Positions 41,963 to 64,000 of a stretch of 64,000 nt of DNA are shown here, in pieces. Origin of the DNA: the human T2T-CHM13v2.0 reference genome, Homo sapiens; NCBI RefSeq assembly GCF_009914755.1, contig NC_060925.1; one strand, given 5' to 3'. The position numbers and the translations under genes are program-made. Below the pieces are notes generated by a model that made no database searches, had not been told where the DNA came from, and was given only the letters and a program-made list of their open reading frames with translations. Position 1 is the stretch's first letter. Each line of letters begins with the position of its first letter.

Positions 41963-42304
41963 TCAATAAAAAGAAAAAAAAAAACTGGAGTTTGAACATT
42001 TTCTCAGTTTTGCTGAAGGTGTAGGTTATGGACTGTTTTATTTGCTCTCTTTGTTGCTTTGTGTGAAATAAAAACCAAAAACATGTCCAAGGGAAGGTGG
42101 CATGAGTTACATTTAGGCTTCCGTGGGGCTTGTATCAGCCAGACCGCATGTTAGAAAGCCCAAGCTGGGAAATGGTCTGGAGGCAGGATAATTCAAGCAA
42201 GAGATGGAAATAGAGGGCTGGATTAGGATGGGGTCTGGGGATGAAGAGGAGGAACATGTGGAACTGGAATTTGAGCAAAAATCACCTGACTCTTTTTCCC
42301 CAAG

Positions 42305-45696: not shown

Positions 45697-48095
45697 GTCC
45701 CTGGACTACAAAGCACCAGATATTAAGTGGCCTATCTTTCCTTGCTCTCCCTTGGGGTTAAGGGGATAATGACTATCTTGGCAAACCAGCCAGGTAGTTT
45801 AGAACCTCATATTTAGACTCGGCAGGCTGTTTTACTCCAGGAAATTGATAGAGAGAAAGGAACTTGGCCAAGCTATCAAGTGCAGATCTAGAATCCCAAC
45901 CAGGATCTGTCTGCCCCAGAGGTGGTCTCTTCCGTAAGAAGATGGTGCCTTCTATGGGTGTTTCCTGAACGAGGCTGGTGCCAAGCACAGAGAGATGAAT
46001 CAGAGCTGGTTTCTGTGCTCAAGGGACCGTCTTGATCTGGGGGCTCAGAGGTCCACCTCGGTACAGTAGCCATGGGGAAGAGGAGCCCCTAATGGAAGGG
46101 TCAGAAAGGCTTTCTGGAGGAGGTAATCCCTGGGCCCAGTAAGAGTGTAACACCTAGTAATCCCTCAAATTTTGAAATAAACTGAACAGGTGAATGAAGA
46201 AGGAAGAGGATTCCAGGCTGAGAGCACTGGACGTGGCAACTGTTCAGAGGAGAGGCAGTCTTCAAGTTCTACATTCATTCAGAAAAATGTTTTTTGAGCC
46301 TACAATACTGAGCGCAACAAGGCTGTGGAGACCCATGGTGAGGAGCATGGAGTTAACTAAAGGATGTGTCAGGGAAGAAAGACTTCTCAAGGAGGTGCCT
46401 CCATCAGACCCAAAGGACTCATGGGGGCTAGCTGCACCTCACATTTCTTGGACATATACCGTTGGACATGTCTATCTTCTGGAAACTATGGCATGGACAG
46501 TAAGGATTCAGAAGTGCATGAAGGCACCCTGCCTCTGCAGAGCAGAAAGATCATAGACAACATTTATGAATGTGCCCAGTGCTGCCAAGAAGAGAAGCCG
46601 GTCCTCTGCAGGCTCAAGCCTATCTGGGCCTCTGGGGAAGCCCCACAGCCTTGGCTGTGCCTGCCCCTGCCCTCTCACCCCTACCCTGACCTTGTCCTAC
46701 TTCACTGCCTTTGTCTGTGTTACTAGTGGCCCCAGTATACCTGGGATGGACATCCAGGTGCCCTTCATCCAAGCTCCTATGTGAGGGGAATGGACATTAT
46801 TAAAAGAACAGGGGCAGAAGTGGCTCATTTATGACCCATTCACTAGCCCCAGGGATTGAAGTCTTGGGTACTCAAAGTGTCTTTCTACCAGGGCACCAGA
46901 TCCCTTCCATGGAGCAGGTCATCTCGGGTTCACTGGGCCAGGGATGGTCTCTGTTCCCCAGCCCACCTGGCTCACACACAGCCTCATGGGTAGGGTCAGC
47001 AAACCAGATGGCTTGTTGTTGGAATGTAGGATGAGAGGCCTGCTTGGTGACCTAGCATTTTCACCAAGAAGTGGACGTGGAGAGGACCAGAGTGATCAAG
47101 GGTGTATGATGTGCACTACAATGGTGGGCAAAACAGGCTCCTGCTCTTGTGGAGGTCACAATCTAGCGGAGAAAGGATGTTACTAGAAGTACACAAATTG
47201 GGCCCGGCGCGATGGCTCACGCCTGTAATCCCAGCACTTTTGGAGGCCGAGGCAGGCGGATCATTTGAGGTTAGAGATTCGAGACCAGCCGGGCCAACAT
47301 GGTGAAACCCCATCTCTACAAAAAATACAAAAATTAGCCTGGCATATGGCGGGTACCGTAATCCTAGCTACTCGGGAGACTGACGGGAGAATCGCTTGAA
47401 CCCAGGAGGCGGAGGTTGCAGTGAGCTCAGATCTCACCATTGCACTCCAGCCTGGGCGACTGAGCGAGACTATCTCAAAACAATCAAAACAAAAAAGACC
47501 TGTGGACTCTAGTAGATTTTGAATCCTGCCTCTGCCATTTCCTGGCTATGAGGTGTCTTGAGAAATTTACTTGTCACTCTTGCTTCTGATAGTAAAGGGG
47601 ATGGTGCGATAGATTCAAGATGGAGAGATAAGGTTAAGTGTTTTCTTTGGCTGCAACATGGAGATTAGATTAGAGCAAGGATGTAAGGGAGAGGAAGGGA
47701 CATAGCAGTATTTCAGGTGAGAGTCAAGGTGGCTTTGGCTAGGGTGTGAGAGTGGAGGTAGGGAGAAGTAGGAAAGTGATAGTTAACTGGATTTGTTAGG
47801 TGAGGGTGAGGCCAAGGGTGACTTCCAGGTTCCTGACTTGTGTTATAAGTAACACAGAAGAAGAATGGATGAACTTGATTCGTTTTCCATTGATTGTGAT
47901 ATCTATCATACCTGCAAAAAATATTTTGTATATATCCAATTTAATAATAAATGCACTCATGTTAGGAAGGTCAAAAAAAAGGAAAAAAGAAAAATAATAA
48001 AAAATAATAAAAATCCTTAGGATAACTTGAGGCCAGGAGTTTGAGACCAGTGTGACCTTGTCTCTGTAAAAAATAAAATTAAAAGAAAAAGAAGG
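45697..48095 (+). other. KLF17: KLF17 terminal non-coding exon (3'UTR), containing an Alu at ~47201-47495
   Basis: Donor tag|gtcagt right after the stop; strong acceptor cttcttctcctcccaccttccttag|gtcc; AATAAA cluster at 47946-48077. The 3' end is approximate. Confidence 0.7.
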
Positions 48096-48499
48096 GAAAG
48101 TGATCTACTAGTACATTTAAAGCTTTGAATTCCCCATCCTTCTTTGCAGAGGTAACCACTATACTGAATTTTGATTAATCTTGCCTTAGCTATTTATTGT
48201 TTTTACCACATAATGTATCTGTTCTTAAATATAGTGATTGATTTTGTATGGTTTTGAACTTACCTTTATTCTGTTTAGGATTCATCAAACTTTTTCAATC
48301 TAAATGTTTAGTGGTCTTAATAAAATTTGGAAAAATTTTGGGCATTGTTTTGTCAAATTTTGGGGTTCTCCTCCACCTTCTATTTCTGACACAGTCTGCC
48401 TATATGATGGAGCACTTGATATTGTCCCTCAGGTTACTGACACCCTGTTCATTTTTTTCGGTTCTTTTTTTTCTTTTTTTTTTTTTTTTTTGAGACTGA

Positions 48500-48601
<102 letters not shown>

Positions 48602-49426
48602 TAGCTGGGATTACAGCTGTGTGCCACCACACCCAGCTAATTTTGTATTTTTAGTAGAGACTGTTTCTCCATGTTGGTCAGGCTGGTCTCAAACTCCCAA
48701 CCTCAGGTGATCTGCCTGCCTTGGCCTCCCAAAGTGCTGGGACTATAGGTGTGAGCCACCACACCTGGGGGTTTTATATAATGTGAAATCCTTGGTGGAT
48801 TGTTAGAATATATAAGGGTTGTAGTGAAATCTGAAGAAATGTTTGGGGTTTTTGGATGGGTTGGGAATATGTTACTATTTTTCATATTTAGGTTAATGAA
48901 ATAAAAACTTTAGTCTAAAAATTTATGATCTAGCAGATTAGATCTGGATAATGAACAGCTGTATGATCTTTTCTTTTTATAGTTGTTGTACTTCATGTAA
49001 GACTCTAGCGCACTCTCAGATTTCTTTGGTCTCTCACTCCCCCACGCCCACCCTGCTGTGTTGACAATGTAGAGAAGTTTTGTTTGGGGTTGTTATGGAT
49101 TCTTTTTATTGGCCTTAGTAATAACATGGATGAAATCTTAGAGATAATGTGTTGAAAACAAGGGAGTTTCAGAAGAAACTTAGTATAAGTTATATAGCTT
49201 AGTATAATATTTATGAAGCTCAAAACAAAAAAACCCTGCAAATTATCTTTGAATACATGCATTTTTGATAAATGTATCAAGGGATTTATATATACAAAAT
49301 GCAGGGTAGTCATCAATTCTAGAAGATAGACAGAAGGATGGGTAGGGGAGCTCACCAGACTTGGCACATAGCCGGGGCATTGCAGTTTTCTGAAAGGAGC
49401 TATAGTCAAGGACTTGGCATCCCCAC

Positions 49427-49870
49427 TGTAAAGCAAGTTCACTGTGCACTGGTTATCAGCTTGTCTGAGTCCAGTGAGATCCAATGACACCCATACACAC
49501 AACAAGTTAAATAAAATAGGTTTATTACAGGCAGCAAGGGACAACAATCTAGGATTCACTGGGAGTGAGTCCCCCAAGGCTCAGGAAAGCTGCCCAGCGG
49601 GGATGGAGTCTTAACTGCATGTATCCCACTTGTACCACAGCTGAAGGACCCCAGAAAGCAGCCAGTGCACAGTTTTATACCCTGGGTTTATGTGGATGAT
49701 TGAAGGACGATGGTGCTTCCATGCAGAGGCCTCCTTATTTGGGGTCTTGGCTAAGGCTATCTCCCCCATCTGCTCTGCAGCAGTCAGTAAATAAGGCTTG
49801 ATCATTCCTTTCCATCTGGCTCATTGTTCCGATTGGCCATATCAACCCCTGATTGCATGACACTGGGTGA
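49427..49870 (-). mobile_element. ERV solo LTR (MER68/MER77/MER21-like)
   Basis: Minus-strand TATA (gtataaaa, 49680-73), downstream AATAAA (49526-21), CCAAT near 49833, and a ..taca terminus at 49427. Confidence 0.6.
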
Positions 49871-50769
49871 TGAGCTCTTACAGGTGCTCATTTTTTCTAC
49901 TTATAACTTAAATATCTTATTCAATATATTTCATATATAATATTACACAATATCTTTTTTTTTTTTTTGAGACAGGGTCTCGCTATGTCGCCCAGACTGG
50001 AGTGAAGTGGTGTGAATATAGCTCACTGCAACTCCAACTACTGAGCTCAAGTGATCCTCCCAGCTCAGCCTCCCAAGTAGCTGGGACTACAGGCATGCAC
50101 CACCACACCCGGCTAATTTTTGTATTTTTTTTTTGTAGAGACAGAGTTTCGCCACGTTGCCCAGGCTAGTCTAGAACTCCCAGGCTCAAGCAATCTGCCC
50201 ACCTTGGCCTCCCAAAGTGCTAGGATTACAGGCGTGAGCCACCACACCTGCCTGAGGTTGAACCTTTGAATAGGCTAAGTACTCTTCTAAGCAAAGTCCA
50301 TTTAACCTGAGACCACTTTACACTGGACGTGACTGAGCGTCCCCTCCTTTTCACCTCATAGGAATGAAGCTCCAAAGAAACATGGACTCAGCTACAGACA
50401 AAAAATGTTTCATTCTTTACCCTCTGAGCTATACACATATCAATCTCAATCACCTACATAGATACGTTTTAAAAGTACACATACAGGTAAATACAGAGTA
50501 AGATCTAGAAGGATTCACAGCATGCTGATAAAAGCCGTTACCCTGAGAGAGGGGAATGAATGAAGAGGGCTTCTGGTTTCAAGTTGAAAGTCATCCAGTT
50601 TTTACATGAAAATGCATACCTACTTTTTTTGTATATTTTAGAAAACTTATGAATAATATTAAGCACCTACTAGCTACTGGCATAGGGAAATAGGGGAGCT
50701 TGTTCAAGGGAAACAACCTCAATAGGGAGAATCTTTTAGCTGTACACATTTCCACATGGGCTGAAGGGT

Positions 50770-50988
<219 letters not shown>

Positions 50989-51619
50989 TCATACATCAGG
51001 GTGAGGTAGGGCAGGGACATTGAAAGTGAACAAGAAAACGTTTTTGAACAAGTTGGAGTGGGAGAGGGAGAGCCAGAGGAGACGGGAGTGGTGGAGGTGA
51101 GTGAAGGAGGAGGGGAATGAGGGCCGCAAAAGCTGGAGAGACAAGAGGAAAACTGTGAAGAAGGGAAGAAGAGGAAAGGAAGAAGAAAAAAAACAAACAG
51201 GAGGAGAGACAGTTATTGGCAGGCAAGTTAGTGGGGGGAATAAGGAGGATGAGGGAAGTGGGGCCTGGGGGCCCTGTCACTACGAAGTGACGGTCCCAGT
51301 AGAAATAGCATCAAGAACATCTACCTGCAAGAGGCCAAAGAAATCCCTCCACTTATTCCCATCAAACCAGCAGTCAACACCACTAAAGGCTATAGCCAGC
51401 CTGGCTCTGGTCCAGGACTAGAGCCTGTCCCTGGTCCAGGACTAGAGCCTGTCCCTAGGACTGCTTTATCTACCCTTCTGAAGGTGCCAACCTTTTCTAT
51501 TATAGAATTTTTTGAATCCCTGGCTTAAAGGAAGTGGCAGCAATCTCAAATGCTTCCGGGGCTTTGTAAAGGCACAAATCTGTAGCCACTTGCCCCTCAC
51601 CCCTGTTTCTGGGCCCTCA

Positions 51620-54586
<2,967 letters not shown>

Positions 54587-55203
54587 TCATCCCAGCTCAA
54601 ATTCCAATCCCCACATACCCTCCTTCTCCGTCCCTGTTGACCCTATCCTAATCCAGCCCACCATCATCTCTTGCCTAGAAGCCTGTAGTTGCCTTTCAAC
54701 TGACTCTGGAGTTAACTTCATCCAGTGTCCCCTCCACACACAGAGTAACATTTTAAAAGTGCAAACATTTCTCAAGTGCAAACTTTTACTAAGCTACTCC
54801 TATCTACCAATGGAGATGAGAGTCTAGATGGATGTTGTGAATCTCCTATCATCCTCTGAAGAGATCTCACCCCAGAGGCTTTTCCAAAGTCTCCTCTCCA
54901 GACATCTTACCGGAGATTCAGCTGATTAAATTTTCAAATAAATTATCTCATTTCATTTCCACCATGACCCCAGAAAATAAGGGTCATAATTAATCCCATT
55001 TTAAGGAAAATAGAAGTCCAGGGAGGTAAATTGACTTGGCCCAGGTGGAAGACTCTTAATTTGTACTGGACCTATCTGGCTGTGGGTCCTTACAGTCCCC
55101 TAGATAAATGGGATATTTCTCCCAGAGATCTCACTGGGGGCACCCACTGATTCTAGCCTCCTGAGAACCATCCTGGAAACCACCAGCTTCTAGGAACCAT
55201 TCT

Positions 55204-55475
55204 ACTATGGACTGAATGTTTGTGTTTCTCCAAATTTCATATGCTAAAACTGAATTTCCAGTGTGATTGTATTAGAAGGTAGCGCCTTTGGGAGATGATT
55301 AGGTCATGGAGACAGAACCTTCAAGAATGAGATGAGTGTTCTTCTAAGGGGCTGAGGGTCAGAGTTCTTTACTTCTACCAAGTGAGGACACAGCTAAAAG
55401 GTGCCATCTATGAATCAGAAAGTATGCCCTTACCAGACACCGAATCTACCAGCTCCTGGACAGAACAGACTAAGA
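55204..55475 (+). mobile_element. MaLR LTR (MLT1A/MST-like) in KLF18 intron 1
   Basis: tactatggactgaatgtttgtgtttctccaaatttcatatgct..gcctttgggagatgattaggtcatg..aggacacagc..gccatctatgaatcagaaag..cagacaccgaatct. Confidence 0.8.
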
Positions 55476-56479
55476 TACATTCCAAGAAGCAGTTTCTTTG
55501 GAGACAGAGGCGTAACTGTGCATATGGACAAGGTTTATATTTCTGTTCAAAGTGGCCATCCATATGCTTCTAGGCTTCCTTTGTCTCTGGTATCAAGTGT
55601 ATGTATGTATGTATGTATGTACTTATTTATTTATTTATTTATTATTTTCTCTTTTTTCTCTGCCCCATATGATCTGCAAGAAAAGTGTCAAGTTTATAAT
55701 GAGCTCCCCAAAGCCACCATCTGGGTAGCCTCACATCTTTTTCATCCCCTGTGCCTCTTCCCTGCTTTTGTCCTACTCTAGCCAGATCAGTCTACTCAGT
55801 TTTGCCATGTTCCTATCCAATCCATTGCTCAGTCTGCCTTATCCAGCCAAATTATCTTATCTAATACGTTCTCCTTTCCCATCTCTGCCATCAAAGTCTG
55901 GTCCCTCCTGCCTTGTCCTGACTCTCAGAATAGAGAAATACCATAATTCCCCCAGGCTGTATTCAAAATGTGTGACAGGACTGCCATTGAATATGGTGGA
56001 CTGAGGAGACCCTGAAGTCCTTCCCTTCTATACCAAATCATAGAAATGATAGATGGCTTTAAATATATAGAAATATATATATATATATAATATATGTACA
56101 TATATTACATATATTTAAAGAAAAATTTTAAAACCCAAAGAATATACATATATAACATATATCTATTTATGATTGGAAATAAGTGGAATTTCCCAAGAAC
56201 TAGAAGGAGGTACCCTTAAAAGAAGGGAGATAATTGAAGCCACAGTGGAAGCAGAAGCCACTTTCACTTGGAGGTCTGGGCTGATGCCACTTCTTGTGGT
56301 GACACCCTACCAAGAGGAGCTCTCAAAACCTAGGAATTCTTTTTATTTTTATTTTCAGAGATGGATTCTCTCCAAGTTACCCCGGCTGGATTTGAACTAC
56401 TGGGCTCAAGCGATCTTCCTGTCTCAGACTCCCTAGTACGTGGGACTACAGGTGCTTGCCACCACATCCACCTCTAAAT

Positions 56480-58575
<2,096 letters not shown>

Positions 58576-59081
58576 TTCAAAAAAAAAATTCCAAACAGGA
58601 AATCTTTGAAATGATGTCCTCTGAGATTAAAATCAATCTCTAGCTATCACAGCACCTCTAGCTCTAGGTACTCAGAGGCTGTGGGACGAGGTTCCCTTGA
58701 GCCCAGCAGTTTGAAGCCAGCTTGGGCAACATAGCAAGAACCCCCTCCTCTCTAAAAAATAAATACATAAAATTAAACTTTAAAAATCAATCTCTAATAG
58801 CATCTTACTCTTACACTTAGTTTCCCACCATTTCTACTCATGTAAAAGCTTAACTCCTGTCTACCCCCTCTCCCCACCACTGGACTAGAAGCTCCTCTGA
58901 GCAGACAGAACTCTATTTCGTTCTGAGCAAGGCCTGATGGATCCCACTGGGAACCTTAGAAAACAGGAACCCAGTGAGGGACTGATTCCCACTCCACCTG
59001 CTCTAGGTCTGCTTCTGGTCCCTAAAGTTTCTGGCCCTTGGAAAAACAGAAGGATTTCAACCCCAGTTTAAGGAATTATTA

Positions 59082-59465
<384 letters not shown>

Positions 59466-59895
59466 CTATGCCTCCTTCTCTTGATCTCTAATAATTCAAC
59501 CCAACCCACCCAGGCCCCTCTGACTCATGGGCCTAGCGTTCCTTGTATACTTCCATGAGACTTCGACCAGACCACGATCTCGTCCTGGGCTCCTGCCAAC
59601 ATGATAGAAAGACCTTCGGGTGCCATCGAGAGACCCCCAGGATCACAACCACAGCCTTCTCTGCAGGCCCCGCGTCTGTCTGATGAAAGGGTCTGTCTGA
59701 TGAAAGGCATGCCCTGCGGAGGGCAGGCTCGTGGAAGTAAAAATGGTCCTCAATAAATGAACCGTTTCAGACACTTCTCTGTCCTCCCCTATTAGCGGGC
59801 TCCCTTGCTAGGATTCTGGACGCCTACATCTTTGAATTTCTGACCTACCACTCCATGACACCGACCTTCGCCCTTTCATTTGGAGATAGACTTAC

Positions 59896-59910
59896 CAGAA
59901 ATTGATCCAT
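59896..59910 (-). CDS. KLF18: Predicted KLF18 first coding micro-exon (MDQFL)
   Basis: gccatATGGATCAATTTCTG|gtaagt has a consensus donor in phase 0, in frame with the acceptor at 54559. It is the first ATG downstream of the TATA box. Confidence 0.7.
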
Positions 59911-59959
59911 ATGGCAGGCCGGGCACTTTGCTACTTGCAGACGGAGAGGAACACACTCT

Positions 59960-60190
59960 GAAACTTCTGGGCGCCTTCTGGGGCCTGGGCTTTTATACAG
60001 CCTGGCTCGGATGCACCCAGGTCACTGCTTTGCGTCTTTGGTCGGCCACACCCCTCGGGGCGGAGCCCCAGCGACCTACCTACCGCCTGTATAGGCAGAG
60101 TGATTGAGTTACCTACCAGAGGCCTCTGGACATTAATGCAATCACTTCCCCTGTTCTCATTGTGCAGGGAAGCAATTGGCATTAATTAGC
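59960..60190 (-). promoter_or_regulatory. KLF18: Predicted KLF18 promoter: TATA box, KLF and GC boxes, DUX4-type motifs
   Basis: TATAAAA 59997-59991(-); GGCCACACCC 60044-53; GGGGCGGAGC 60057-66; TAACTCAATCA 60111-60101(-); TAATGCAATCA 60134-44(+). CpGs are retained locally. Confidence 0.75.
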
Positions 60191-61061
60191 GAATTTTACC
60201 CTCACCAGTATTAGGAGGTGGATTTTATCATTGTTATCATGTAAAGCGAAAACTGAGACTCAGAGATATTAAGTATTTGCAGGTCACAGAATCAAACACT
60301 GATAGTAGATTTGAACTCAAACGGTTTTGCTCTTATGATCTGAGTCCTTAAACACACTAGAGGCATCAGATTCAATCAGCTGTTCACTTATGCAGACTCC
60401 ACCTCTTTGGCAGCTGTAAACTTAATCAAATTACTTCTACTGTGAAATCCTGATAATTCCATCAGTTTACCCTGGAAACTTAATGGCTTTTTTTTTCTGT
60501 GGTTTTGACTTATTTACTTATTTATTATTTATTTATTTATTTTATCTTGCATAATTATCTTGATAATTCCATCAGGTTACCCTAGAAATGATCGTGGTAC
60601 TTTTTTCTCTTTCTTTCTTCCTTCTTTCCTTTTTTCCTTCCTTCCTTCCTTCCTCTTTCTTTCTTTTTCTTTCTCTCTCTCTTTCTTTTTGGCTGTGGTT
60701 TTTACTTACTATTTTTAATTTTTTTGCCACCTATTTATTTTTGAGACAGCGTCTTACTCTGTTCCTCAAGCTGGAGTGTAGTGGTGCAATCATGGCTCAC
60801 TGTGGCTAATTTTTAAATTCTTTGTAGAGACGGAGTCTCATCATGTTGCCCAGGCTGCTTTCAAACTCCTGGACTCGAGCGGTCCTCCCACCTCAGCCTC
60901 CTAAAGTGCAAAGATTACAGGCATGAGCCACCATGCCCGGCCTTCATTTTGAATGTAAAAAAAAAAAAAACCAGATAATTTCATTTTACATACATAGCAC
61001 GTTCATCCACTCATTGTTGATAAAATTTTAGAAATATTTGCTATACAAATTTAGTATTTGA

Positions 61062-61403
<342 letters not shown>

Positions 61404-62159
61404 TGATTTCTACAGGTACAGAGTTCCCATCCTCACCCTCATTCCTACCAATTCTGAGAAATTTTAAAAACATGGAAAAGTATAAAAAATAAGACTAGAG
61501 ATCCATATACCACAGTACAGAATTAATCAGTATCTTCCTCTATTTACTTGTAGTCTTTTTTTTTTTTTTGACACGGAGTCTCGCTCTGTCGCCCAGGCTG
61601 GAGTGCAGTGGCATGATCTCGGCTCACTACTTGCAGTCTTTTTAAAGAAAAGATGTTTAGATACAAAGCTGAAGTCTCACACTCACTCTCTTCCCTTCTT
61701 CACTCTTTACAGGTGACCACTAGCAAGTATTGGGCTATATTCTTCCAAACCATTTCAGAAACATTTACGTACATACATGTATAGTATGTGTATAGTACTG
61801 AATTTTGTGAGGGAAATTTTAATTCAAATTTACAAAAAGTGGCTGAACATGGTGGCTCATGCCTATTACCTCACCCTTTGAGAGGCTGAGATGGGAGAAT
61901 TGCTTGAGTCCAGGAGTTCCAGACCAGCCTGGGTAATGTAGCAAGACCCCGTCTCTATTTAAAAATAAATTAAAAATTAGGTCGAGTGCAGTGGCTCACG
62001 CCTGTAATCCCAGCCCTTTGGGAGGCCGAGGCGGGTGAATCACTTGAGGCCAGGAGTTGGAGACCAGCCTGGCCAACATGATGAAACACTGTCTGTACCA
62101 AAAAATACACAAAAAATTAGCTGGGCGTGGTGGCACGCACCTGTAGTCCCAGCTACTCA

Positions 62160-62273
<114 letters not shown>

Positions 62274-62864
62274 TTAATTAATTAAACAAATAAATAACAC
62301 AAAACAGCAACACATTTACAGAAAGTCATTGTACTATATGCATCATTCTGCAACTTGATATTACCCCCCTCAACATGATTCTGAGATCTTCCTGTTAATA
62401 CATGTGAATCTCAGGTGTTGCACTTACAGACATATATTATTCCATCATAAGGATTTCTTCTTTTTGATGTTTCCAATTTTTGGCTACTACAAATCAAACC
62501 ATAGTAAATATCCTAGTACATATTTCCTGAGCATACACATTCAAAAGTAGAATTGCTAAGTATTTCTGAAGTTGTTACAAGGAATGTTTCCCTACTCCCA
62601 AAGTCATATAATTTTAATACATAGCTTTTTCAATGCCTGCTTTTCATCTCTGTGGATTTTACTTTTGTGTATGGTTCATGGTCTATTTTTCCCTACTTGG
62701 AGAACAGATTACCTCCAAACCATTTTTAAAAATCGTCCCATATTTCCTCCTATCCTGATTCACTTCTATCGTATTCCAAATTCAAATAATGCATAGGTCT
62801 CTTTCTGAAATCTGTTCTGCTCTGTTCAGTCAACACCACAAGAGTCTTATGTATTTATAGATGA

Positions 62865-63275
<411 letters not shown>

Positions 63276-63349
63276 TGACCTCAGGTGATCTGCCTGCCTC
63301 AGCCTCCCAAAGTGCTGGGATTATAGGCATGAGTCACTGCACCTGGCCA

Positions 63350-64000
63350 GACTCAGGCTTTTTATCATATGAATACCCTTCTCTTCAGAAGGACATTGAA
63401 TTTTCTGATGTCCCACAAGTTACATACATAAAGTATCTGTTAAAATTTACCTTATTTGTGGTGCTTTGCTGCAAAATGATTATTTCTGATGCATTATGAG
63501 GTGTACATTCCTGATAAAAGCACTCCCATTTTCAAGGTTTTTATTAATTTTTTTTGTAGAGGCGGAGTCTCCCTGTGTTACCCAGGCTTGTCTCGAACTC
63601 CTGGGCTCAAGTGATCCTCCTGCCTCAGCCTTTAACGGTGTTGGGATTACAGGCGTGAGCCGTCATGTCCTGCTGGAGTTTTTAAACGAGTATGACTTTT
63701 CTGGAGTCTGATGTGGTGTGACTTCTGGCTGAAAGCTTCCCACATTCACCATACTGATAAAGCTTCCTACCTGTGTGTATTCTTACATACAGAGCAAGAG
63801 TTGAGAATTGGGAGAAAGCTTCCCCACAGCCATGGAAACCATAGGGCTGCTCACCTGCGGGGCTGCTCACACACACAGTAAGCAATGAACTGAGACAAGG
63901 CTTTTCCACAGTGAGTTCATAGGGTTGATCATCTGAAATCTCACATCTACAATAAGTGGTATTTGCTGACAGAAGATGTTTCCACATTCCTTACACTCAT
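63350..64000 (-). pseudogene. Decayed C2H2 zinc-finger (KRAB-ZNF type) pseudogene fragment, Alu monomer inserted at ~63548-63670, runs off the window
   Basis: ECKECGK.., [40 protein letters not shown]; Cys/His ligands lost and frameshifts present. Confidence 0.75.

What the first reader, a model, noticed from the sequence alone, without database searches (positions are those of the whole stretch)
59896..60190. Hidden first exon and TATA promoter of KLF18, 5.3 kb upstream of the repeat exon
Seen on the - strand: TATAAAA (59997-91), a plausible start ~29 nt downstream (~59968), a ~58-nt ATG-free leader, then ATG GAT CAA TTT CTG and a perfect GTAAGT donor. The main KLF18 exon has a good acceptor (T7gcag|GAT at 54559) in the same phase, giving [25 protein letters not shown].. 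(1046 aa versus 1025 aa from MDSS). This mirrors KLF17: short phase-0 first exon, exon 2 starting with GAT, and a phase-1 intron at TG^E. As I recall, standard KLF18 models have 2 exons and start at MDSS, so the real promoter and a 21-aa extension may be missing from them. That last point is inference.
Basis: partly seen in the sequence, partly recalled or inferred. Interest (0 to 1): 0.85.

Follow-up and report, generated by a model that had tools for sequence, protein, structure and literature searches.

The report
Upstream first exon of human KLF18
A short, unannotated first exon with its own TATA promoter and a DUX4 binding motif lies 5.3 kb upstream of the annotated KLF18 gene; upstream exons were published in 2026, but this one may also add 21 amino acids to the protein.

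Summary

The core idea is already in print. Hamm et al. 2026 (PMC13224869) report a DUX4-induced KLF18 transcript. It starts next to a DUX4 site in an upstream MIR and has two unannotated exons upstream of the annotated ones. Their coordinates are in a closed supplement.

- The only perfect DUX4 motif in the 64 kb window lies 104 bp upstream of the TATA box, beside a MIR-like repeat.
- No usable acceptor lies in or just upstream of the exon.
- A colugo gene model aligns best, window-wide, to 60054-59895.
- The acceptor at 54559 is positionally homologous to the KLF17 exon 2 acceptor.

The 16 codons upstream of the annotated Met are more conserved than the following 40. Mean identity to 20 orthologue models is 54% against 41%. 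That supports an upstream start codon.

The direct 59896-to-54559 splice is unproven, because the paper describes a middle exon. All 9 candidate middle exons I predicted carry an in-frame stop.

Verdict: real, mostly already known. The 21-aa extension is plausible and untested.

The parts
60130..60350 (-). MIR-like interspersed repeat, in the same orientation as KLF18
   Evidence: 60350-60185 matches two unrelated chr1 loci at 64% over 180 bases (E 2e-8) and 67% over 81 bases (E 0.009). The name MIR comes from Hamm et al., from a bioRxiv figure legend and from my recall of the MIR core. No repeat library was available. The 3' limit near 60130 was judged by eye.
60134..60144 (+). DUX4-like motif with one mismatch, inside the MIR-like repeat
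   Evidence: It is one of 18 matches with up to one mismatch in the window, where 14.7 are expected. It is therefore weak evidence on its own.
60101..60111 (-). Perfect DUX4 consensus motif (TAAYYBAATCA, consensus recalled)
   Evidence: It is the only exact match in 64 kb on both strands. The chance expectation is 0.74, and 56 of 100 shuffles had at least one match. The position is what is informative, not the count.
60044..60063 (-). GC box (CCGCCCC, 60063-60057) and inverted CACCC-type box (GGGGTGTGG, 60054-46); candidate SP/KLF sites
   Evidence: Read. The motif identities are recalled. The colugo model alignment begins here, at 60054.
59991..59997 (-). TATA box
   Evidence: The colugo model aligns across it: PGAIRAQA against human PGCIKAQA in an alternative frame.
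59911..59968 (-). Predicted transcription start (initiator-like CCCAGA at 59971-59966) and 58-nt leader without ATG
   Evidence: The start site is inferred from TATA spacing and has not been measured.
59896..59910 (-). Coding part of the proposed exon 1: ATG plus 4 codons (MDQFL), ending in phase 0
   Evidence: The start context is C at -3 and G at +4.
59890..59895 (-). Splice donor GTAAGT
   Evidence: The PWM score is 9.65, the 70th percentile of 263 true donors. The colugo alignment ends at 59895.
59510..59713 (-). Best-scoring predicted candidate for the published 'second' unannotated exon (204 nt); unverified
   Evidence: The acceptor scores at the 71st percentile and the donor at the 26th. 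In the MDQFL frame there is a stop at codon 63.
54595..54674 (-). Intron 3' end homologous to the end of KLF17 intron 1
   Evidence: blastn against window 42197-42276 gives 77.4% identity over 84 bases, E 1.6e-8. The match is collinear with the zinc-finger exon matches (alignment). The 5' end of the RefSeq model (54630) lies inside this block.
54560..54570 (-). Polypyrimidine run and acceptor AG
   Evidence: The PWM score is at the 25th percentile of 280 true acceptors. It is aligned with the KLF17 exon 2 acceptor, and both exons begin with GAT.
54512..54559 (-). 16 codons ([16 protein letters not shown]) annotated as 5' UTR; probably coding
   Evidence: Mean identity to 20 orthologue models is 54%, against 41% for the next 40 annotated residues. 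In the unspliced sequence an in-frame TGA lies 10 codons upstream with no ATG in between.
54509..54511 (-). Annotated start codon (MDSS)
   Evidence: The context is G at -3 and G at +4. Met occupies this position in 3 of 20 orthologue models (dog, pangolin, colugo), and Fukomys has a Met next to it.

Best explanation
Window 59968-59896 (minus strand) is the true first exon of the DUX4-inducible KLF18 transcript.

Proposed mechanism:
- DUX4 binds the consensus site at 60111-60101, at the edge of a MIR. This is inferred from the motif plus published ChIP-seq whose coordinates I could not see.
- RNA polymerase II starts about 29 nt downstream of the TATA box at 59997, with GC and CACCC boxes in between. 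This is inferred.
- The 73-nt exon ends at a strong GTAAGT donor.
- Transcripts reach the big repeat exon through the acceptor at 54559. This acceptor was inherited from the KLF17/KLF18 ancestor (shown by paralogy).
- When exon 1 joins 54559 directly, the first AUG (MDQFL, moderate context) is in frame. It gives a 1046-aa protein on the CHM13 allele.
- Its residues 6-21 are a segment conserved across placental mammals. Leaky scanning to the strong MDSS AUG would also give the annotated 1025-aa form.
- Transcripts that include the published middle exon probably stop the MDQFL frame. They would then make only the annotated form.
For: - Published: a DUX4-induced transcript initiates next to a DUX4 site in an upstream MIR and has two unannotated upstream exons. 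A bioRxiv legend also shows DUX4 on a MIR in the KLF18 promoter region.
- The only exact DUX4 motif in the window is 104 bp upstream of the TATA box, beside a MIR-like repeat.
- The donor scores at the 70th percentile. No acceptor above the 17th percentile lies between 60100 and 59905, so the exon is a first exon and not an internal one.
- Colugo model residues 28-79 align to 60054-59895. This is rank 1 of 854 bins in a frameshift-tolerant protein-to-DNA scan (65 against a next best of 52). It is also the best tblastn HSP in the whole window (E 0.033).
- The acceptor is positionally homologous to the KLF17 exon 2 acceptor.
- The 16 'UTR' codons are 54% identical on average to 20 orthologue models, against 41% for the next 40 residues. 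The only indel against the Euarchontoglires models is in frame, and the segment cannot be reached from an AUG without an upstream exon.
- The spliced CDS is open and encodes 1046 aa.
Against: - The coordinates of the published exons were not visible because the supplement is closed.
- A second MIR-like repeat at about 55050-54920 carries a one-mismatch DUX4 motif. A LTR-like element at about 55460-55200 carries two more. The published MIR could therefore be a different one.
- The paper counts two unannotated exons, so the direct splice may be minor or absent.
- All 9 of 9 predicted middle exons have in-frame stops.
- The N-terminal extensions of 6 laurasiatherian models do not align significantly to the exon 1 region. 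Scores were 20-35 against 99th percentiles of 33-45.
- KLF17 and KLF18 promoter similarity is at chance level.
- The count of exact DUX4 motifs (1) equals the chance expectation.
- The upstream AUG has a weaker context than the annotated one.
- Met at the MDSS position is shared with colugo and lies next to a Met in Fukomys. This fits a start codon that moved downstream in this clade.
Confidence: 0.62

Rival explanations
1. The exon and promoter are real, but the mature mRNA always includes a middle exon. The MDQFL AUG then opens an upstream ORF, and the protein starts at the annotated MDSS. Conservation of the 16 codons would be a leftover from the ancestral start.
For: - Hamm et al. describe first and second unannotated exons and place the VNTR in the third exon.
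- 9 of 9 PWM-predicted middle exons carry a stop in the MDQFL frame.
- The MDSS AUG has the stronger context.
- Met at that position is shared with colugo, dog and pangolin.
- Endogenous tagging and transgenes based on the annotated start gave working protein.
Against: - The 16 codons are better conserved than the annotated residues that follow (54% against 41%). This is hard to explain for a UTR.
- The middle exon was predicted, not observed.
- An N-terminal tag placed at MDSS would also sit inside a longer protein, so the published experiments do not discriminate.
Confidence: 0.28
2. The published DUX4-bound MIR and start site are the nearer MIR-like repeat at about 55050-54920, or another place. 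The reader's site would then be a conserved but unrelated promoter-like sequence, or the promoter of another transcript.
For: - A second MIR-like repeat carries a one-mismatch DUX4 motif at 54933-54923 and is followed by donor-like sites at 54911 and 54871.
[quoted passage not shown] This could mean close to the annotated start.
Against: - The nearer motif lacks the first T of the consensus.
- No acceptor at or above the 25th percentile lies between 54911 and 54560, so two extra exons do not fit there.
- Hamm et al. call the start 'alternative upstream'.
Confidence: 0.12
3. Chance co-occurrence of a TATA-like heptamer, an ATG and a GT with no function.
For: - The same composite occurs once elsewhere in the 528 kb scanned, at a place that is not an annotated exon.
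- The exact DUX4 motif count equals the chance expectation.
Against: - The best match of the colugo model in the whole window falls exactly on this 160-nt stretch.
- Published evidence exists for upstream exons.
- The conserved 16 codons need an upstream AUG.
Confidence: 0.04

Closest known systems
DUX4-induced KLF18 transcript of Hamm et al. 2026 (Genes Dev 40:873; PMC13224869)
   Same: It has an upstream alternative start next to a DUX4 site in a MIR, and unannotated exons upstream of the two annotated ones. The CHM13 allele is annotated as 1025 aa.
   Different: The main text keeps the GENCODE start and protein length. It contains no 'start codon', 'open reading frame' or 'untranslated'. 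Coordinates are in a supplement I could not open.
KLF17, the neighbouring paralogue (NM_173484.4)
   Same: It has a TATA-like element 29 nt upstream of the annotated start. Its short first exon ends in phase 0. Exon 2 begins with GAT at a homologous acceptor, followed by a phase-1 intron inside the first zinc-finger linker. Gnomon isoforms that lack the coding first exon start at an internal Met 10 codons into exon 2. The annotated KLF18 start follows the same logic.
   Different: KLF17 exon 1 encodes 27 residues, not 5, with no similarity to MDQFL. The promoters are not detectably homologous. Hamm et al. report no adjacent DUX4 peak at KLF17.
DUX4-driven alternative promoters at repeat elements (MaLR LTRs and others; recalled from the DUX4 literature, not read here)
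   Same: A DUX4 motif at a repeat lies about 100-150 bp upstream of a new first exon that splices into a downstream gene.
   Different: Here the repeat is a MIR (a SINE) and not an LTR. The TATA box, GC box and exon lie outside the repeat and are conserved in colugo. The promoter therefore looks ancestral, with the repeat supplying or flanking only the DUX4 site.

Membership tests
TATA/initiator RNA polymerase II core promoter | TATA box about 25-31 nt upstream of the start site | tested here: inconclusive
   TATAAAA is present at 59997-59991. The start site itself is only predicted.
TATA/initiator RNA polymerase II core promoter | Initiator motif at the start site (BBCABW, recalled) | tested here: met
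   CCCAGA lies at 59971-59966, with the A at 59968, 29 nt after the first T of the TATA box.
TATA/initiator RNA polymerase II core promoter | Measured transcription initiation (CAGE, 5' RACE) | not testable with these tools
   No read data were available. RefSeq lists no CAGE or promoter feature in 48000-64000.
DUX4-responsive promoter | DUX4 consensus site close upstream of the start | tested here: met
   An exact match lies at 60111-60101, positions -143 to -133 relative to 59968.
DUX4-responsive promoter | DUX4 occupancy and DUX4-dependent transcript at this place | not testable with these tools
   This is published for 'a MIR upstream of KLF18', but the coordinates were not visible. A second MIR-like repeat exists.
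U2-type GT-AG intron (59895-54560) | Donor and acceptor within the range of true sites | tested here: met
   The donor is at the 70th percentile and the acceptor at the 25th percentile of 263 and 280 true chr1 sites.
U2-type GT-AG intron (59895-54560) | Spliced reads joining 59896 to 54559 | not testable with these tools
   No reads were available. No processed copy of KLF18 exists in the genome to act as a fossil cDNA.
KLF17/KLF18 shared gene structure | Homologous acceptor and equal intron phases | tested here: met
   Intron ends are 77% identical over 84 bases, E 1.6e-8. Both exons start with GAT, with phase 0 followed by phase 1.
KLF17/KLF18 shared gene structure | Homologous promoter and first exon | tested here: not met
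   There was no blastn match at E <= 1e-3. The local alignment score was 11, and 497 of 2000 shuffles scored as high.
Protein-coding N-terminal extension | The extension is conserved as protein in orthologues | tested here: met
   This holds for the 16 residues encoded in the big exon. Identity ranges from 44 to 69%, mean 54%, to 20 models. All 20 carry the segment as coding sequence, and two bat models cover it only in part.
Protein-coding N-terminal extension | The start codon and exon 1 codons are conserved | tested here: inconclusive
   Camel, two whales and goat show a Met-Asp-x-x-Met pentapeptide before the junction. Their upstream parts do not align significantly to the human exon. Colugo DNA appears conserved across the ATG and the GT, but the ATG depends on an unknown third codon base. 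No primate model was available.
Protein-coding N-terminal extension | Translation from the upstream AUG (ribosome profiling, peptides) | not testable with these tools
   No such data were available.

The most novel reading that the evidence does not exclude
The true N-terminus of human KLF18 is 21 residues longer than in GENCODE, RefSeq and UniProt. It consists of MDQFL from the hidden exon plus a 16-residue segment. That segment is better conserved across the 20 placental orthologue models than the 40 annotated residues that follow it. If so, all published KLF18 expression constructs and the endogenous 'N-terminal' tag lack or interrupt a conserved N-terminal element. In addition, the KLF18 promoter (TATA box, GC/CACCC boxes) is ancestral at least to primates plus colugo, with the DUX4 site beside a MIR added on.
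Probability: 0.45. Interest if true: 0.5.

Novelty: already known. Interest (0 to 1): 0.38.

Why it matters
KLF18 has recently been shown to be a required component of the DUX4 programme of human zygotic genome activation. It is also a candidate modifier of facioscapulohumeral dystrophy (Hamm et al. 2026).

Reference annotations still lack its real promoter and first exon(s). As a result, expression quantification, promoter analyses, CRISPR designs and variant interpretation at this locus all use the wrong 5' end.

If the 21-residue extension is translated, the constructs used so far omit a conserved N-terminal segment. That could affect conclusions about what KLF18 can do on its own. Otherwise this is an ordinary annotation gap.

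Tried and rejected
- **Protein word search with the N-terminal 130 residues of the big exon.** It returned nothing, and 148 candidates of untold source were left out. No primate KLF18 was ever retrieved, so conservation within primates is untested.
- **Search of the whole genome for a processed KLF18 copy that might preserve the exon junction.** Only the locus itself matched.
- **Search of the genome with the MIR-like stretch.** Only the stretch itself matched. The RefSeq masked-repeat table does not cover it or the two dispersed matches, and the window file has no soft-masking. The repeat name therefore rests on the papers and on recall.
- **KLF17 against KLF18 promoter homology.** MAFFT, blastn and Smith-Waterman with shuffles were all negative.
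- **Mapping the N-terminal extensions of 6 laurasiatherian models onto the human exon 1 or the intron end.** By eye I saw TATA-like and 'VPG/MD..L' matches, and equally good matches to the intron end. The frameshift-tolerant scan put both at noise level. A plain tblastn was only noise. I rejected these resemblances as evidence. Whether the Met just before the junction in 15 of 20 models belongs to an upstream exon or to the big exon cannot be told without their DNA.
- **The 'AW|D' match between the colugo model and the end of the predicted middle exon.** The colugo segment aligns better to the opposite strand (score 67 against 45), so I rejected it.
- **The count of exact DUX4 motifs.** It is not above chance.
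- **Literature.** A search for 'KLF18' found 56 papers, and 'KLF18' plus 'exon' found 19. Only Hamm et al. and one bioRxiv legend bear on the promoter.

What I read of each paper:
- Hamm et al.: outline, passages, and sections 5, 9, 10, 11 and 17.
- Pei and Grishin 2013: passages.
- The two preprints: passages.
- No supplements were requested, because they are closed. Supplemental Fig. S1A and Table S9 of Hamm et al. would settle the coordinates.

Full report
**The observation**

- TATAAAA lies at 59997-59991.
- A 58-nt ATG-free stretch runs from about 59968 to 59911.
- ATG GAT CAA TTT CTG occupies 59910-59896, followed by GTAAGT.
- A run of seven T, then GCAG, then GAT at 54559 opens sixteen codons. 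These lead to the annotated ATG at 54511.
- Joining 59910-59896, 54559-51625 and 50960-50770 in a script gives an open 3141-nt CDS of 1046 aa. The annotated product is 1025 aa.
- The hexamer around 59968 is CCCAGA. It fits the human initiator pattern as I recall it.
- RefSeq on T2T holds one Gnomon model with two exons starting at MDSS, and no regulatory feature between 48000 and 64000.

**Is it more than chance?**

I trained position weight matrices on 263 GT donors and 280 AG acceptors. These came from select transcripts in twenty 10-kb stretches of chr1.
The acceptor scores at the 25th percentile of true acceptors.
- Between 60400 and 54540 only 15 of 343 GT sites and 9 of 436 AG sites reach the 25th percentile.
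- I scanned for a composite of TATAAA[AT], an equally strong donor 60-200 nt downstream, and the first ATG in frame and open to that donor. It occurs twice in 528,000 strand-bases. One occurrence is this site. The other is not an annotated exon.

Sequence alone therefore makes the site unusual but does not prove it.

**What is already published**

Hamm et al. 2026 (PMC13224869; I read the outline, passages and sections 5, 9, 10, 11, 17) aligned published RNA-seq and DUX4 ChIP-seq to the locus.
[quoted passage not shown] MIR element'.
[quoted passage not shown] The VNTR lies in 'the third exon'.
- They keep the GENCODE protein of 1052 aa and note that CHM13 is annotated as 1025 aa. This matches the window.
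- Their main text contains no 'start codon', 'open reading frame' or 'untranslated'.

A bioRxiv preprint (10.1101/2024.04.18.589901, passages only) has a figure legend on the same point. [quoted passage not shown]

Pei and Grishin 2013 (passages) predicted KLF18 without expression data and did not describe a first exon.

Evidence for a match:
- The window holds one exact DUX4 consensus match, at 60111-60101 on the KLF18 strand, 104 bp upstream of the TATA box. The count itself is what chance gives (0.74 expected), so only the position counts.
- Immediately upstream, 60350-60185 matches two unrelated chr1 loci at 64-67% identity, as an old interspersed repeat would. By eye it resembles the MIR core (recalled). 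A one-mismatch DUX4 motif lies inside it.
- No acceptor between 60100 and 59905 exceeds the 17th percentile. The exon therefore behaves as a first exon.

Evidence for ambiguity:
- A second MIR-like stretch at about 55050-54920 carries a one-mismatch motif at 54933-54923.
- An LTR-like stretch at about 55460-55200 carries two more (names recalled).
- That nearer site leaves no room for two further exons. No acceptor at or above the 25th percentile lies between 54911 and 54560. Its motif also lacks the first consensus base.

**Conservation of promoter and exon 1**

The protein word search gave KLF18 models from other mammals (526 proteins at E <= 1e-5 among 1610 candidates, 120 listed). I examined 27 of them.

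The colugo model (P0009) is an odd prediction whose N-terminus reads through non-coding DNA, so it serves as a proxy for colugo DNA.
- Residues 36-85 score 65 against the human minus strand ending at 59895. This is rank 1 of 854 bins on both strands, with a next best of 52 and a 99th percentile of 43.
- The best tblastn HSP of its first 138 residues in the whole window is 60050-59895, E 0.033.
- The traceback runs from the CACCC-type box across the TATA box and the ATG to the donor, with four frameshifts. That is what conserved non-coding DNA would give.
- The GT and the five-codon spacing appear preserved. The ATG depends on an unknown third base.

The same scan with six laurasiatherian N-terminal extensions was negative. 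Scores were 20-35 for the exon 1 region and 16-29 for the intron end, against 99th percentiles of 33-45. I therefore discard the motif matches I saw by eye.

**The acceptor**

The last 80 nt of KLF17 intron 1 (42197-42276) match 54674-54595 at 77% identity, E 1.6e-8. The match is collinear with the two zinc-finger exon matches. In the alignment the two acceptors coincide and both exons begin with GAT. The acceptor at 54559 is therefore inherited from the duplication. The 5' end of the RefSeq model at 54630 lies in what is intron in the paralogue.

The promoters are not detectably similar. There was no blastn hit. The local score was 11, with 497 of 2000 shuffles and 213 of 1966 genomic windows scoring as high.

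**The 16 codons**

- All 20 orthologue models that cover the region carry the counterpart of [16 protein letters not shown] as coding sequence. Identity to human is 44-69%, mean 54%, against a mean of 41% for the next 40 annotated residues.
- Fifteen of the 20 have a Met directly before the segment. Human has the acceptor there.
- Met at the human MDSS position occurs only in dog, pangolin and colugo. Fukomys has one adjacent.
- In the unspliced human sequence the frame is closed by a TGA ten codons upstream of 54559, with no ATG in between.

A conserved, open segment that cannot be reached from an AUG without an upstream exon is the strongest argument here that translation starts upstream. 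The MDQFL ATG is the candidate. Its context is C at -3 and G at +4, against G and G for MDSS. Both starts could therefore be used.

**The middle exon**

I paired predicted acceptors and donors at or above the 25th percentile, 30-400 nt apart. This gave nine candidate internal exons. All nine carry a stop in the MDQFL frame.

The best is 59713-59510: 204 nt, acceptor at the 71st percentile, donor at the 26th, and a stop six codons before its end. If the published second exon is one of these, MDQFL opens an upstream ORF in that isoform and MDSS starts the protein. This is prediction only.

**Verdict**

- The hidden promoter and first exon are very probably real, but their existence was published in June 2026.
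- The single-intron structure is at odds with the paper's count of exons.
- The 21-residue extension is plausible and supported by conservation. I did not find it discussed in the texts I could search, and it remains untested.

Noticed in passing
window 60044-60063 (-): The putative promoter of KLF18, itself a KLF factor, carries a GC box and an inverted CACCC-type box about 75-95 nt upstream of the predicted start. These are possible sites for auto-regulation or cross-regulation by KLF17/KLF18 or SP factors. The motif identities are recalled.
   Followed up: no
window 54920-55460 (-): A second MIR-like stretch (about 55050-54920) and an LTR-like stretch (about 55460-55200; it resembles a MaLR LTR from recall) lie 0.4-0.9 kb upstream of the big exon. 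Between them they carry three one-mismatch DUX4 motifs (54923-33, 55264-74, 55296-306). They are followed by donor-like sites at 54911 and 54871.
   Followed up: partly
window 59511-59665 (+) versus protein P0009 residues 90-137: The second part of the colugo model's N-terminus aligns best to the strand opposite KLF18 (score 67, rank 1 of 854 bins; the same segment scores 45 on the minus strand). The first part aligns to the KLF18 strand 250 bp away. This suggests a small inversion between human and colugo, or an error in the colugo assembly. No strong inverted repeat flanks it in human.
   Followed up: partly
window 54595-54674 (-) and 42197-42276 (+): The last 80 nt of the intron before the big exon are better conserved between KLF17 and KLF18 (77%) than the exon sequence that follows. 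This may be a shared intronic splicing or regulatory element. The RefSeq KLF18 model starts inside it.
   Followed up: partly
window 42335 (+): Three Gnomon KLF17 isoforms with far-upstream non-coding exons start their CDS at an internal Met 10 codons into exon 2. This is the same kind of truncated start as the annotated KLF18 Met.
   Followed up: no
window 60440-60720 (-): A GA-rich microsatellite (about 60600-60700) is followed by two copies of a roughly 50-nt unit (about 60550-60600 and 60440-60490) separated by an A/T-rich run. It lies just upstream of the MIR-like repeat.
   Followed up: no
window 51625-54511 (-): The CHM13 KLF18 allele (annotated 1025 aa) is a minor VNTR variant. According to Hamm et al. 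it is at 3.3% in the HPRC set, the commonest variant is 1039 aa, and GENCODE has 1052 aa. Protein lengths quoted for this window do not transfer to GRCh38.
   Followed up: yes
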